DNA from: an uncultured bacterium
GTDB lineage: Bacteria; Patescibacteriota; Minisyncoccia; UBA6257; 2-01-FULL-56-20
Assembly: GCA_963844965.1 (NCBI GenBank)
Contig: CAWJQC010000008.1
Location: 92,185 to 156,184 of the forward strand
DNA: 64,000 nt
Reading direction: 5' to 3'
Part shown: piece after piece, positions 21,924 to 49,605 of the stretch
Position numbering within the stretch: the stretch's first letter is position 1
Layout of the letters: each line of letters begins with the position of its first letter
Position numbers and translations under genes: made by a program
The notes under the pieces: model-generated
Seen by the model: only the letters and a program-made list of their open reading frames with translations
Told to the model about the DNA's origin: nothing
The model's database searches: none

Positions 21924-22054
21924 CCCGTTAGAAATAGGGCGCAACGCCGCCGCTCGTCCTCTTTATTATTTAATATTCGGCCATTTTGTTGATGTAATAT
22001 CCGCAAAGCGTCCGCGCCTGCCTGCCGGCAGGCAGGATTTCTAACGGGACCCAT
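21919..22054 (-). mobile_element. MITE-like element copy 1 (TIR TCCCGTTAGAAAT; flanks ATGGG/ATGAG) between the clpB-like stop and the MFS start
   Basis: On the minus strand: ATGGG-TCCCGTTAGAAAT…ATTTCTAACGGG-ATGAG. Contains the 20-bp palindrome at 22017-22036. Confidence 0.6.
22017..22036. repeat. perfect 20-bp palindrome CCTGCCTGCCGGCAGGCAGG (copy 1 of 3)
   Basis: Identical at 31099-31118 and 38023-38042. Confidence 0.9.
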
Positions 22055-45396: not shown

Positions 45397-45590
45397 TTTA
45401 CAAGGTTTTTAAGCTCCTTCAAATCTGGGGGCGGGAACGATCCTTAGCTACTCCAGGAAGGCGTGGTTTCGGCGACGCCTCTCCTCGGGATAATTCTAAC
45501 CTCTTTTGATTTTATTAAAAGAGAATCTTGTTCCGACTCCGGTCGGAGCATGCCCCCAGGTTTGAGGGAGTTTTGTTTTCAAAATTAAAT
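45397..45590 (+). ncRNA. candidate structured ncRNA: closing helix CTGGGGGC/GCCCCCAGG around three internal hairpins, then U-rich tail
   Basis: 45435-45442 pairs with 45562-45570. Internal hairpins GGCGTgg…ACGCC, CTCTTTTgattttattAAAAGAG and CCGACtccGGTCGG. Followed by TTTTGTTTTC. No ORF. Confidence 0.4.
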
Positions 45591-45670
45591 ATTAAAAACA
45601 AAAATTAAAGATATTATGATTTTTGATTTAATTCCTCGACCTTTGTATACTTATTTTTAATATTTGATTT

Positions 45671-47363: not shown

Positions 47364-47483
47364 CCCGTTAGAAATAGGACGCGGATAAAGCCACCGCGCC
47401 ATTTTTAATTTTTTGTAGTGCTCTGACCATTTACAATGATTCTTCTATTTTGCAACGCATCCGCAATTTCTAACGGGATCCAT
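47359..47483 (-). mobile_element. MITE-like element copy 2 (TIR ATCCCGTTAGAAAT; perfect 5-bp direct repeat TCCAT/ATGGA) at the gspE/pilB start codon
   Basis: On the minus strand: ATGGA-TCCCGTTAGAAAT…ATTTCTAACGGG-ATGGA. Confidence 0.65.
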
Positions 47484-47556: not shown

Positions 47557-47585
47557 TTGACAATACGCTTGTTTGGATATATAAT
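47557..47585 (+). promoter_or_regulatory. sigma70-like promoter (TTGACA-17-TATAAT)
   Basis: Upstream of the 47654 operon. Confidence 0.5.
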
Positions 47586-47653
47586 TAAAGTAGTTTAGTT
47601 GGCAGTAATACCAGCCGAGTTCATTGGCCGGAAATCACAAGGAGGATAGGACC

Positions 47654-48439
47654 ATGAAGAAACGATTGATTCTGTCGCAACTGATTGTATTTCTATTCGT
47701 CGTTTTCGTATCCATCTCAATGGCCACGCAAGGACAGCATTCCACACCCGCGCCACGAAGCAGCCCCCCTGGCGGTGGCCAAAAAGTTGTTGCGCCACCC
47801 ACGCAACGCGGCGGCCCACAACGAACCACTCCGGCACAACTACAACGTCCCACCCAAAATCGAACCTATCGCATTCCCGCGCAGGGACCTTTGCCACAGG
47901 CGCGCGGTGGCCCCGGTGTTTACAACCGATCATATTATCCGCAAATGCCCAGTCCGCGCCAGAACAACCGGCGACGGTTTAGTGGAGAATATCGCGGCGG
48001 TGAAAGCCGCTTCGGCGGCTACGGCGGGCGCTACTTCGGTGGCGGACGCAACCGCGGTTATTACGGCGGTTTGAGGGGCTACGGCGGGAGAAGCCACGGC
48101 TGGGGGTATGGGTACCACAGTTGGAGCTATATCTGGTTTTTACTCTTCGGTTTTGAATATGGACCACCCCCTTGGTATTGGGATCCGTTCTATTGGGATT
48201 CGTCGTACTATGGCGCCTACTGGGGACCGTGGTTCGGAAGGTGGGGGATCACCTATTGCCCGTATCCGTACTATCCATACTATCCATACGATGCGGCCAT
48301 TGGCTACTGCGGTCGCACCGGTGTGAAGTTTGACACCGGCGAGATCACGGACAGCACCGACAAAAAAATCATCCGCGAGAGCGAAGTATACGTGGACGGC
48401 CCTACGCCGGCATTGTTAAGGACTTTGACGGCCGGCTGA
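47654..48439 (+). CDS. secreted Gly/Tyr/Trp/Arg-rich low-complexity protein
   Basis: RBS AAGGAGG; N-terminal MKKRLILSQLIVFLFVVFVSISMA signal-peptide-like segment; GGYGGRYFGGGRNRGYYGGLRGYGG…PWYWDPFYWDSSYYGAYWGPWFGRWG. Confidence 0.55.
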   Translation: MKKRLILSQLIVFLFVVFVSISMATQGQHSTPAPRSSPPGGGQKVVAPPTQRGGPQRTTPAQLQRPTQNRTYRIPAQGPLPQARGGPGVYNRSYYPQMPSPRQNNRRRFSGEYRGGESRFGGYGGRYFGGGRNRGYYGGLRGYGGRSHGWGYGYHSWSYIWFLLFGFEYGPPPWYWDPFYWDSSYYGAYWGPWFGRWGITYCPYPYYPYYPYDAAIGYCGRTGVKFDTGEITDSTDKKIIRESEVYVDGPTPALLRTLTAG

Positions 48440-48474
48440 GGGGTGGGCTTCGTTTAGGCGCTGGAAATCATAAT

Positions 48475-48840
48475 GTGGAGGTGCGGTTGCCAAACAACCA
48501 AACCTTCACAAAGGAAGTGGATGTGCGGCAGTGTCAGGTTACGATTATACACATCCCACAACCTCCGCACCCCGCCACTTCCGGCTCGGCCACCCAACCC
48601 CAAAAGACAGAACCTCGGCAGGAAGGGAAAGTGAGCAAGCAACAAGACGAGAAGCTTGCCACCCCGACCCCGCCGATCACTGCCCCCGGCAATCCCGCCG
48701 GGCAGTCAACCGAGGATGAATTGGGGCAGCTACAGGAAGCGCGCAAAACGACAGCTGACGAGAATGCGCGCATCTTGAAGGAGTTGGACGAAGAAATCCA
48801 GAAGTTGCAGCAGAAAGCAAAAGAAGGAAACAAGCAATAA
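48475..48840 (+). CDS. hypothetical Pro/Thr-rich protein with C-terminal coiled-coil (GTG start)
   Basis: 121 aa; co-transcribed with 47654. Confidence 0.35.
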   Translation: MEVRLPNNQTFTKEVDVRQCQVTIIHIPQPPHPATSGSATQPQKTEPRQEGKVSKQQDEKLATPTPPITAPGNPAGQSTEDELGQLQEARKTTADENARILKELDEEIQKLQQKAKEGNKQ

Positions 48841-48866
48841 TTGTAGGTCCCGCTCGCAGGAGACCG

Positions 48867-48905
48867 GCCCAACCACCACAACTACCACAGGTTGGGCTTT
48901 TTTTA
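48867..48905 (+). terminator. Rho-independent terminator
   Basis: GCCCAACCaccacaactaccacaGGTTGGGCTTTTTTTAT. Confidence 0.7.
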
Positions 48906-49056
48906 TCCAAACGGCGTATTATAATCTAATTGATTTTGGCTTTTAAAAATTTTTCCACTTTCAATATGTCCGGCCATTCGCATTGGGCGGGCCGTCTACG
49001 GCGAGCCTCGCCCGGGAGTAGAACGTAAAATTGGGGTAAATTATTAAATTATAAAC

Positions 49057-49605
49057 ATGTCAGGCCATAGTCATTGGGCGGGAATAAAACATAAAAAAGG
49101 AGAGACCGACCAGAAGCGCGGAAAGGTTTTTTCCAAACTTCTCGCGGCTATTTCCGCCGCCGCGAAGTCCGAGCCGAACCCGGAATTCAACCCGCGCCTC
49201 CGGACAGCCGTGGAAAAAGCTAAGGAGGCGCACGTACCCGCGGAAAACATAGAACGAGCTATCAAACGCGCCACCGAGACAGGCGCGAATCTTGAGGAAC
49301 TTATTTTTGAGGCCTATGGGCCAGGCGGCACGGCAATCCTTGTTGAGGCGATTAGCGACAACAAAAACCGCACCGTGCAGGAGATCAAAAAAATACTGAA
49401 CGAACTCGATGGCAAGTGGGCAGAATCGGGAAGCGTGCGCTGGGCATTTTCCGCCGAAGGTGGATCCGCCTCAGGCGGAGAACGCGTCTGGCGCGCTAAA
49501 TTTCCTCAGGAACTCAACGAGGAGGACAAGAAAAAACTCCAAGAACTTATCGCCGCGCTTGAAGAACAGGACGACACGCAAAAAGTATACACCAATGCGG
49601 CATAA
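49057..49605 (+). CDS. YebC/PmpR-family probable transcriptional regulator (short form)
   Basis: MSGHSHWAGIKHKKGETDQKRGKVFSKL…NPRLRTAVEKAK…; 182 aa. Confidence 0.75.
   Translation: MSGHSHWAGIKHKKGETDQKRGKVFSKLLAAISAAAKSEPNPEFNPRLRTAVEKAKEAHVPAENIERAIKRATETGANLEELIFEAYGPGGTAILVEAISDNKNRTVQEIKKILNELDGKWAESGSVRWAFSAEGGSASGGERVWRAKFPQELNEEDKKKLQELIAALEEQDDTQKVYTNAA

What the first reader, a model, noticed from the sequence alone, without database searches (positions are those of the whole stretch)
47557..48905. Operon for a secreted Gly/Tyr/Trp/Arg-rich low-complexity protein
A promoter, RBS and signal peptide are followed by about 120 residues dominated by GGY/RGG/YGG repeats, then a Trp/Tyr/Phe/Pro-rich block (PWYWDPFYWDSSYYGAYWGPWFGRWG…PYPYYPYYPY). 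It is co-transcribed with a Pro/Thr-rich coiled-coil protein and closed by a strong terminator. The composition resembles adhesive, phase-separating or amyloid-forming extracellular proteins. An epibiotic CPR organism could use these for host attachment.
Basis: partly seen in the sequence, partly recalled or inferred. Interest (0 to 1): 0.5.

Follow-up and report, generated by a model that had tools for sequence, protein, structure and literature searches.

The report
Exported sticky PEGA-domain protein, split by frameshift
The "two-gene operon" is one gene, broken by a single missing base that is probably an assembly error; it encodes an exported protein with a disordered Arg/Gly/Tyr tail, a very Trp/Tyr-rich block, a small PEGA-type beta-sandwich and a coiled coil, and it belongs to a widespread family of unknown function.

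Summary
The unusual composition is real. A perfect sigma-70 promoter, an AGGAGG site, a signal-peptide-like N-terminus, a Gly/Arg/Tyr stretch, a 47%-aromatic block and a terminator all sit at the stated coordinates.

The "operon" is not real. ORF1 (47654-48439) and ORF2 (48475-48840) are one gene, split by a 1-nt deletion at about 48400. Three homologues read straight through that point, including a syntenic 396-aa orthologue. Neighbouring dnaN, PBP1 and the pilus ATPase carry similar 1-nt indels, so assembly error is the likeliest cause.

The repaired 395-aa protein reads, in order:
- signal peptide
- basic disordered P/Q/R then G/R/Y region
- W/Y/F/P block
- divergent PEGA (transthyretin-like) beta-sandwich, which spans the frameshift
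- Pro/Thr linker
- coiled coil

The signal peptide, disordered region, aromatic block and PEGA domain recur in that order in hundreds of uncharacterised proteins. These come from Parcubacteria and also from Acidobacteriota.

The window does come from a CPR/Parcubacteria organism. Nothing ties the protein to host attachment, though. The most likely role, which is inferred and not shown, is a multivalent self-associating cell-envelope or matrix protein.

I rate it a new variant of a known but uncharacterised kind, of modest interest.

The parts
47557..47585 (+). sigma-70-type promoter (TTGACA, 17 nt, TATAAT)
   Evidence: 12 of 12 consensus matches. The orthologous position in L001 has TTGACA-16-TACAAT, 11 of 12.
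47640..47645 (+). Shine-Dalgarno AGGAGG, 8 nt upstream of the ATG
   Evidence: Read directly from the sequence. L001 has AAAGGAGGG at the same place.
47654..47725 (+). signal peptide, residues 1-24 (MKKRLILSQLIVFLFVVFVSISMA|TQ)
   Evidence: Only Kyte-Doolittle peak in the protein. Relatives have equivalent N-termini: A-x-A|Q in P0002, P0249, P0015, P0154, P0153, P0158 and P0023, and V-V-A|Q in P0025. SignalP was not available.
47726..47965 (+). basic disordered region, residues 25-104, Pro/Gln/Arg/Thr-rich (net charge +10)
   Evidence: Composition and charge. The equivalent part of P0002 has pLDDT below 50. The sequence is not conserved but the composition is.
47966..48121 (+). Gly/Arg/Tyr-rich stretch, residues 105-156 (RGG, GGY, YGG, GGR motifs; net charge +8)
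   Evidence: G 36.5%, R 19.2%, Y 15.4%, against a window background of 7.8%, 5.6% and 3.5%. Only the last ~20 residues align with P0002.
48122..48295 (+). aromatic block, residues 157-214, including the short hydrophobic segment WSYIWFLLFGFEY and PPPWYWDPFYW...PYPYYPYYPY
   Evidence: 47% Y+W+F. Well conserved with P0002 and P0003. Low-confidence in the AlphaFold2 model, apart from a short helix over the hydrophobic segment. An aromatic-rich block upstream of the domain is family-wide: median Y+W+F is 0.30 in 121 representatives.
48296..48567 (+). divergent PEGA / transthyretin-like beta-sandwich domain, residues 215-305; it spans the frameshift
48398..48402 (+). frameshift site: 1 nt missing in GGCCC (GACGG-CCCTAC against GACGGAACTTAC in the orthologue)
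   Evidence: P0002, P0003 and P0249 read through this point.
48568..48702 (+). Pro/Thr/Ala/Gln-rich linker, residues 306-350
   Evidence: Composition. Variable in length and sequence against P0002.
48703..48840 (+). C-terminal amphipathic helix / coiled coil, residues 351-395, plus the TAA stop
   Evidence: Heptad pattern. The equivalent helix 363-395 of P0002 has pLDDT 95-98. A similar Gln/Glu/Lys/Leu-rich C-terminal stretch is present in P0003.
48866..48904 (+). intrinsic terminator (9-bp GC-rich stem, 15-nt loop, U7)
   Evidence: Fold of 48838-48910. L001 has a terminator at the same place, with 6 of 8 stem-arm positions identical to the window's.

Best explanation
SHOWN.
- 47654-48840 is a single monocistronic gene with its own promoter, Shine-Dalgarno site and terminator.
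- In this assembly it is split into two ORFs by a 1-nt deletion at about 48400.
- The repaired product is 395 aa, in this order: a Sec-type signal peptide; about 130 residues of basic, disordered P/Q/R then G/R/Y-rich sequence; a 58-residue block that is 47% Trp/Tyr/Phe; a divergent PEGA (transthyretin-like) beta-sandwich; a Pro/Thr linker; and a C-terminal amphipathic helix.
- It belongs to a large uncharacterised family with the architecture signal peptide - disordered region - aromatic/Gly block - PEGA domain. The C-terminal coiled coil, the Trp-rich motif PPPWYWDPFYW and a short hydrophobic helix are specific to this small clade.

INFERRED.
- The frameshift is an assembly or sequencing error, not a real lesion.
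- The protein is exported through Sec and cleaved after SMA.
- Outside the cell it acts as a multivalent envelope or matrix component. The coiled coil would oligomerise it. The PEGA domain would be the folded interaction module. The cationic Arg/Gly/Tyr tail and the aromatic block would provide many weak 'sticker' contacts, with anionic wall or membrane polymers, with the membrane interface, or with copies of itself.
- The binding partner is unknown.
For: One gene:
- The frame of ORF2 is open back to about 48331 and overlaps ORF1.
- The syntenic orthologue P0002 (396 aa, 42% identity over 97% of the repaired protein; 67% in the core) reads ...ESEVYADGTYAGIVKDFDG... across the junction.
- The DNA alignment shows exactly one missing base.
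- P0003 and P0249 also read through.

Error rather than lesion:
- dnaN (~53738), PBP1 (~51279) and the T2SSE ATPase (~46506) each carry a 1-nt indel relative to the same relative, all within about 9 kb.

Expression unit:
-, with conserved signals in L001.

Export:
- One N-terminal hydrophobic segment with an AxA-type site, repeated across relatives.
- Two cysteines are conserved in the close clade, at the two ends of the domain.

Domain:
-.

Family:
- 365 cluster representatives at E <= 1e-3.
- An aromatic-rich block upstream of the domain is the rule.
- Members are named 'hypothetical' or 'PEGA domain-containing', from Parcubacteria, Acidobacteria and Vicinamibacterales.

Sticky regions:
- Net charge +18 over residues 25-156.
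- Wimley-White interfacial free energy of -24 kcal/mol for residues 157-214.
Against: - No experimental datum exists for any family member: no names beyond 'hypothetical' or 'PEGA domain', no solved relative by sequence, and no paper found.
- SignalP/DeepTMHMM and phase-separation or amyloid predictors could not be run.
- The reads were not available, so the frameshift could be real.
- Pfam PEGA is just below its gathering score.
- The structure model is of the orthologue P0002, not of the window protein.
- The G/R/Y stretch itself is poorly conserved in P0002, so its exact sequence may not matter.
- No retention mechanism at the surface is visible: no lipobox, no sortase signal, no further transmembrane segment.
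Confidence: 0.6

Rival explanations
1. One reading: a two-gene operon, with a secreted low-complexity protein and a separate Pro/Thr-rich coiled-coil protein.
For: As deposited, the sequence has a TGA at 48437 and a GTG-started ORF at 48475. The database holds the 261-aa ORF1 product as a called protein (P0001).
Against: - ORF2 has no Shine-Dalgarno site.
- Its frame is open about 145 nt upstream of its GTG and encodes the missing half of the beta-sandwich.
- Three homologues are single ORFs across the junction.
- A Pfam domain match spans the junction.
Confidence: 0.03
2. The frameshift is genuine and the gene is a recently inactivated pseudogene. Alternatively it yields a truncated 261-aa secreted low-complexity protein without the PEGA domain.
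For: The deletion is in the deposited assembly. It does not lie in a long homopolymer: CCC here, possibly CCCC originally. A secreted aromatic-block protein without a PEGA domain does exist elsewhere, in L086.
Against: At least three other genes within 9 kb carry 1-nt indels against the same relative, including the essential dnaN and PBP1. That is what an error-prone assembly looks like. Both halves are still well conserved, with no further stops.
Confidence: 0.1
3. An adhesin dedicated to attaching the CPR epibiont to its host cell, possibly working with the type IV pilus whose ATPase gene lies next door.
For: - The organism is Parcubacteria-like.
- The gene sits divergently next to a T2SSE/PilB-type ATPase in three syntenic loci.
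- The composition is sticky and cationic.
- Type IV pili mediate host binding in cultivated Saccharibacteria (abstract of PMC11623550, listed).
Against: - The ATPase-gene adjacency is lineage-specific synteny. Closer RuvB relatives have the ATPase without this gene.
- Subfamily members in L002 and L005 sit among housekeeping genes.
- The architecture is also found outside CPR, in MAGs labelled Acidobacteria and Vicinamibacterales.
Confidence: 0.15
4. A membrane protein: the N-terminal segment is an uncleaved signal anchor and WSYIWFLLFGFEY is a second membrane-spanning or re-entrant helix. That would place the PEGA domain and coiled coil in the cytoplasm.
For: - The first hydrophobic stretch is long (about 17-20 residues).
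- AlphaFold2 puts a short helix on the second segment in P0002.
- That segment has the best interfacial score in the protein.
Against: - The second segment has only about 12 apolar residues, contains Glu, and never exceeds Kyte-Doolittle 0.9 in a 19-residue window.
- It is absent from the wider family, which keeps the same order of parts.
- PEGA was defined in cell-surface proteins (PMC2447325).
- AxA|Q sites are conserved.
Confidence: 0.07
5. A spurious ORF created by low-complexity DNA.
For: Extreme composition. No functional annotation anywhere.
Against: - A syntenic orthologue exists, with 67% identity in the core and conserved promoter and terminator positions.
- A more distant syntenic homologue exists.
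- There is no DNA tandem repeat.
- The orthologue has a confidently folded domain.
Confidence: 0.01

Closest known systems
PEGA domain proteins (Pfam PF08308; transthyretin-like clan with CarboxypepD_reg PF13620/PF13715), in particular the uncharacterised 'VYVDGxYxGxVDDFDG' group
   Same: - Same order of parts: signal peptide, disordered region, Tyr/Gly/Trp-rich block, then a ~75-residue beta-sandwich.
- Domain-only profile comparison gives 99.3% probability, E = 3e-20, 38% identity.
- The fold matches the transthyretin-like domains of carboxypeptidases D, N and M.
   Different: - The window protein scores just under Pfam's PEGA cutoff (19.1 against 20.8 bits).
- It has KDFDG instead of DDFDG, and an extra helix-bearing N-terminal part of the domain (TGVKFDT..STDKKIIRESE).
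- Its aromatic block is unusually Trp-rich.
- It carries a C-terminal linker plus coiled coil, seen only in the closest relatives (P0002, P0003).
- No member of this group has a known function.
'GLKFDL' subfamily of small exported proteins (P0015, P0012, P0046, P0051, P0151-P0158; P0151 is from a Candidatus Parcubacteria MAG)
   Same: - Nearest sizeable group, at E 1e-25 to 1e-45 against the subfamily profile.
- Same signal peptide with A-x-A|Q, a basic Q/R/S-rich region, YG-rich repeats, and the same domain start (TG[VIL]KF[DN]).
- P0015 occupies the same genomic slot, between the T2SSE ATPase gene and yebC-ruvC.
   Different: - About 30% identity.
- Shorter (120-275 aa).
- No coiled coil.
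- No PPPWYWDPFYW motif and no hydrophobic helix.
Eukaryotic RGG/[G/S]Y[G/S] low-complexity domains (FUS-type 'sticker-spacer' phase-separating regions) and plant glycine-rich cell-wall proteins (GRP, PF07172)
   Same: - Composition of residues 105-156 (Gly 37%, Arg 19%, Tyr 15%).
- Some relatives give weak, sub-threshold GRP hits (P0046: 18.5 bits against a cutoff of 30; P0154: precomputed PF07172).
   Different: The resemblance is compositional only. There is no homology, the window protein has no GRP hit, the compartment differs (bacterial exterior), and behaviour is untested. The comparison with FUS-type domains rests on my own knowledge, not on a test.
Functional bacterial amyloids (curli CsgA, Fap, TasA, chaplins)
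   Same: Exported, possibly self-associating, unusual composition.
   Different: - No imperfect repeat units.
- No hit to any amyloid family in Pfam or NCBIfam.
- No nucleator or secretion partner genes nearby.
- The low-complexity part is predicted to be disordered rather than beta-solenoid.

Membership tests
PEGA domain (PF08308) | Score at or above Pfam's gathering threshold (20.8 bits) | tested here: not met
   19.1 bits for the isolated repaired domain and 13.8 bits for the full protein. P0002 has no PEGA hit at E <= 0.1; P0003 scores 14.3 bits.
PEGA domain (PF08308) | Demonstrable homology to domains that do pass the threshold | tested here: met
   hhalign of the close-clade domain profile (A7) against a profile of 18 'VDDFDG' domains (A6): 99.3% probability, E = 3.3e-20 over 61 columns. 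Of the A6 source proteins scanned, P0016, P0010 and P0019 pass Pfam PEGA at 77, 41 and 29 bits. The HMM search with the core profile also retrieves them.
PEGA domain (PF08308) | About 70-residue transthyretin-like beta-sandwich fold | tested here: met
Sec-exported protein with a signal peptidase I site | Positively charged n-region, hydrophobic h-region, small residues at -3 and -1, no lipobox Cys | tested here: met
   MKKR / LILSQLIVFLFVVFVSI / S-M-A|T. It is the only hydrophobic peak. Relatives have A-x-A|Q or V-V-A|Q at the same place. This is by inspection only.
Sec-exported protein with a signal peptidase I site | Prediction by a trained tool (SignalP/DeepTMHMM) or experimental export | not testable with these tools
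   No such predictor is available here.
   Homologues are single ORFs. A 1-nt gap explains the split. There is no Shine-Dalgarno site before 48475.
Functional amyloid subunits (curli-like) | Tandem imperfect repeats forming a beta-solenoid; dedicated nucleator or secretion genes nearby | tested here: not met
   No repeat units. No family hits. The neighbours are ruvB, a T2SSE ATPase gene, yebC, ruvC, a PBP1 gene and dnaN.
Phase-separating RGG/YG low-complexity domains | Arg and Tyr 'stickers' spaced by Gly/Ser in a disordered region | tested here: met
   Residues 105-156 hold 10 Arg, 8 Tyr and 19 Gly. The equivalent region of P0002 is modelled as disordered. This is composition only.
Phase-separating RGG/YG low-complexity domains | Demixing of the purified protein | not testable with these tools
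   Needs an experiment.
Polytopic or bitopic membrane protein | A second hydrophobic segment long enough to span the bilayer | tested here: not met
   No 19-residue window beyond the N-terminus exceeds Kyte-Doolittle 0.9. The segment WSYIWFLLFGFEY has about 12 apolar residues and one Glu.

The most novel reading that the evidence does not exclude
The whole 'signal peptide - cationic disordered region - aromatic block - PEGA' family could be a so far unrecognised class of bacterial extracellular 'sticker-spacer' proteins. These would condense or gel on the cell surface. In this Parcubacteria clade they would be oligomerised by a coiled coil and might serve as cement at the epibiont-host contact, or as a cationic trap for extracellular DNA next to the pilus machinery.
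Probability: 0.1. Interest if true: 0.7.

Novelty: new variant of a known kind. Interest (0 to 1): 0.3.

Why it matters
The practical point is that this assembly contains single-base indels that split real genes: this one, dnaN, PBP1 and the pilus ATPase gene. Any 'operon' or 'small protein' call in this window therefore needs checking against relatives.

The biological point is modest but real. An extremely aromatic, cationic, disordered segment fused to a PEGA beta-sandwich is a recurrent architecture in hundreds of exported bacterial proteins, and none has been studied. If these turn out to be surface matrix or adhesion proteins, the family would offer a compact model for how bacteria use low-complexity 'sticky' sequences outside the cell. 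This small CPR member, with its extra coiled coil, would be a natural place to test that. Nothing here yet shows such a function.

Tried and rejected
- NCBIfam gave nothing.
- A sequence search of PDB chains with the subfamily profile gave nothing significant.
- The afdb50 fold library was not installed.
- The first related-loci run failed because the three-row alignment had no conserved stretch.
- The repeat scan of GTDB genomes with YWDPFYW and HSWS.. patterns found no relative. Neither this species nor its close kin with the gene are among the species representatives.
- An exact-pattern scan of JGI metagenomes around the frameshift found no second copy of the same population, so the error-versus-real question could not be settled from other assemblies.
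- The protein-pattern scan of metagenomes found only L086. That is a different exported protein, with a similar W/Y/G block (…WWYWDPFYY…) but no PEGA domain.
- P0001 is not in the gene-position index.
- Cluster look-ups returned no organism names.
- Paper searches for the assembly accessions found nothing. Papers mentioning 'PEGA domain' contain nothing on this family.
- No homologue lies near ruvB or the T2SSE ATPase gene in the 80 RuvB loci.
- A programmed frameshift was considered and rejected, because unrelated neighbouring genes carry similar indels.
- A DNA-repeat artefact was rejected.
Full report
**What is at the coordinates**

- The plus strand carries a perfect sigma-70 promoter, TTGACA-17 nt-TATAAT, at 47557-47585.
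- AGGAGG lies at 47640-47645, 8 nt before an ATG at 47654.
- An ORF runs to a TGA at 48437-48439 (261 aa). A second ORF, called from a GTG, runs 48475-48840 (121 aa).
- A hairpin at 48866-48898 has a 9-bp stem and a 15-nt loop, with the run of seven U at 48898-48904. The 73-nt stretch 48838-48910 folds at -23.7 kcal/mol, z = -3.1. The pattern scan missed it only because its loop limit is 8 nt.

**Composition**

- Residues 1-24 (MKKR-LILSQLIVFLFVVFVSI-SMA|TQ) are the only strongly hydrophobic segment.
- Residues 25-104 are Pro 20%, Gln 15%, Gly 12%, Arg 11%.
- Residues 105-156 are Gly 37%, Arg 19%, Tyr 15%.
- Residues 157-214 are Tyr 24%, Pro 16%, Trp 14%, Phe 9%.
- The long ORFs of the window give a background of G 7.8%, R 5.6%, Y 3.5% and W 1.1%. 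Against that, naive binomial tails are about 1e-13 to 1e-17.
- The 27 aromatics in 58 residues compare with a maximum of 17 in any other open frame of at least 100 codons, in all six frames of the window.
- Tandem Repeats Finder finds only three tiny 9-nt repeats, so this is not a microsatellite artefact.

The Gly/Arg/Tyr stretch covers about 52 residues.

**The 'operon' is one gene**

- In the three-frame translation, the frame of ORF2 is open well upstream of its GTG. There it reads ...YAGIVKDFDGRLRGGLRLGAGNHNVEVRLPNN..., while ORF1 ends ...ESEVYVDGPTPALLRTLTAG*.
- Joining the two at GAC GGC CC|TAC gives ...ESEVYVDG(P)YAGIVKDFDG..., a continuous beta-sandwich-like sequence.
- A search of 5.8 billion proteins with the joined 395-aa sequence returned two hits. 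One is the deposited ORF1 product (P0001). The other is P0002, 396 aa, 42% identical over 97% of the query. P0002 reads ...ESEVYADGTYAGIVKDFDG... straight through.
- The DNA alignment shows exactly one base missing in the window: GACGG-CCCTACGCC against GACGGAACTTACGCC.
- Two further relatives, P0003 and P0249, also read through.
- ORF2 has no Shine-Dalgarno sequence.

**Error or real mutation?**

P0002 lies on a contig, L001, that is collinear with the window. The order is ruvB, T2SSE-type ATPase gene (minus strand), this gene (plus strand), yebC, ruvC, PBP1 gene, dnaN, dnaA, rnpA, yidC, jag.

A tblastn of the L001 proteins against the window shows further genes broken across two frames:
- the ATPase gene, with a 1-nt insertion at about 46506;
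- PBP1, with a 1-nt insertion at about 51279;
- dnaN, with a 1-nt insertion at about 53738;
- a 65-aa ORF.

An organism cannot live with a broken dnaN, so the simplest reading is an assembly with indel errors. The deletion at about 48400 is probably one of them. I could not see the reads. A scan of JGI metagenomes for the exact flanks found no second copy. A real lesion therefore keeps about 10%.

**The folded part**

- Pfam gives a sub-threshold PEGA hit for the repaired domain: 19.1 bits against a cutoff of 20.8. It also gives a CarboxypepD_reg alignment that runs across the junction.
- An exhaustive HMM search of 1.84 billion cluster representatives with the conserved core found 365 proteins at E <= 1e-3.
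- The closest are P0002, P0003 (a fragment) and P0004/P0249.
- Next comes a subfamily of 120-275-aa proteins whose domain starts TG[VIL]KF[DN].
- Beyond that are hundreds of proteins with the motif VYVDGxYxGxVDDFDG. Of the six scanned against Pfam, three clear the PEGA threshold, at 29-77 bits.
- A domain-only profile-profile comparison of the close clade against 18 such domains gives 99.3% probability, E = 3e-20 and 38% identity.
- AlphaFold2 on P0002, with a 50-sequence alignment, gives:
  - a helix for the signal peptide;
  - no confident structure from residue 27 to about 245, apart from a short helix on WTWYLLFGLE;
  - a beta-sandwich at 246-330 with pLDDT 93-98;
  - a C-terminal helix at 363-395 with pLDDT 95-98.

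The domain is therefore a divergent PEGA, transthyretin-like module. In this assembly it is cut in two by the frameshift.

**The family architecture**

- Across 121 representatives with enough upstream sequence, the 60 residues before the domain have a median Y+W+F fraction of 0.30. In 87 of them it is at least 0.25.
- 87 of the 133 representatives that carry the domain motif have an N-terminal hydrophobic segment.
- In the relatives read by eye, this segment ends in A-x-A|Q (P0002, P0249, P0015, P0154, P0153, P0158, P0023) or V-V-A|Q (P0025).
- Between signal peptide and aromatic block lies a basic, Pro/Gln/Arg/Ser/Gly-rich stretch. Its composition is conserved but its sequence is not. In P0002 the G/R/Y part is mostly replaced by a longer P/G/R/Q/S/T region.
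- The low-complexity parts are thus a conserved feature of the family and not an accident of this gene.
- Specific to the close clade are the motif GPPP[WF]YWDPFYW, the short hydrophobic helix, two conserved cysteines at the ends of the domain, and the linker plus C-terminal amphipathic helix.
- Every source name is 'hypothetical protein' or 'PEGA domain(-containing protein)'. The few organism labels are Candidatus Parcubacteria, Acidobacteria and Vicinamibacterales.
- PEGA was defined as a ~70-residue domain of cell-surface proteins (PMC2447325). I found no paper on this architecture.

**Organism and context**

- The window's RuvB is closest (74-75% identity) to MAGs labelled Parcubacteria group or 'uncultured Candidatus Saccharibacteria'. 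Next come Paceibacterota, Ryanbacteria, Sungiibacteriota and Colwellbacteria. The CPR assignment holds.
- The slot between the ATPase gene and yebC is filled by this gene in L001. In L003 a 30%-identical subfamily member, P0015, fills it.
- In the three nearest RuvB loci checked (L006-L008) the ATPase gene and ruvB are adjacent without this gene. In L014 the ATPase gene abuts yebC-ruvC directly.
- Subfamily members in L002 (Parcubacteria) and L005 lie among tRNA synthetase, YceG, topoisomerase I, RelA/SpoT and ParB genes.
- There is therefore no conserved functional partner. The pilus-ATPase neighbour is lineage synteny and is not an operon, since the two genes are divergent.

**How it most likely works**

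Shown: one gene with its own promoter and terminator, both conserved in position in L001; a Sec-type N-terminus; a long disordered cationic region (net +18 over residues 25-156); an aromatic block with a very favourable interfacial free energy (-24 kcal/mol on the Wimley-White scale); a PEGA sandwich; and an amphipathic C-terminal helix.

Inferred:
- The protein is exported and cleaved after SMA.
- The coiled coil makes it oligomeric.
- The Arg/Tyr/Trp-rich disordered parts give many weak contacts, so the protein behaves as a multivalent envelope or matrix component.
- Candidate partners are anionic wall polymers, the membrane interface, or itself.
- The PEGA domain is the specific module.

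I put 0.6 on this package. The anatomical part is near certain. The functional part is perhaps one in three.

A dedicated host-attachment role (0.15) is a special case that the data neither support nor exclude. The family's presence outside CPR argues that it is not the general function.

**Verdict**

The finding is a real but frameshift-split gene for a divergent member of a large, unstudied family of exported PEGA-domain proteins with an extreme low-complexity region. It is worth a note, not a headline.

Noticed in passing
window 46506, 51279, 53738, 45540-45612: Single-base indels relative to the collinear relative L001 split the T2SSE/PilB-type ATPase gene, the PBP1 (transglycosylase-transpeptidase) gene, dnaN and a 65-aa ORF into two frames each. 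The assembly seems to carry indel errors, so other ORF calls in this window need the same check.
   Followed up: partly
window 47364-47477 and 21924-22048: A ~114-nt insertion, absent from L001, sits directly upstream of the ATPase gene's start codon. It is bounded by perfect 12-nt inverted termini (CCCGTTAGAAAT / ATTTCTAACGGG) and flanked by a duplicated GGATCCAT. The same termini recur as a pair at 21924-21935 and 22037-22048 (4 matches against 0.41 expected by chance), with an unrelated interior. On the ATPase mRNA strand the region folds into a long hairpin (-43.1 kcal/mol, z = -3.7). It could be a MITE-like element or a 5'-UTR structure.
   Followed up: partly
window 48966-49028 (L001 11309-11375): A 20-codon ORF (MSGHSHWAGRLRRASPGSRT*) repeats the first nine codons of yebC about 90 nt upstream of the real yebC start at 49057. 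A GC-rich inverted repeat follows it. It is conserved in L001 and absent from L003. It could be a remnant of a partial duplication or a leader peptide.
   Followed up: no
window 49057-49605: The YebC/TACO1-family protein is only 182 aa here, and 182 and 184 aa in L001 and L003. From my own knowledge the usual length is about 240 aa.
   Followed up: no
L086 4563-5789: An unrelated exported protein from a JGI metagenome carries a very similar Trp/Tyr/Gly block (…SAPWWYWDPFYYSSFYGPYGYY…), followed by a long Ser/Arg/Thr/Asn-rich tail and no PEGA domain. Such aromatic blocks may be a module in their own right, or convergent.
   Followed up: no
L003 3940-4833: In the more distant syntenic locus, an extra 297-aa signal-peptide-bearing protein with no Pfam hit sits between the ATPase gene and the homologue P0015.
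   Followed up: no
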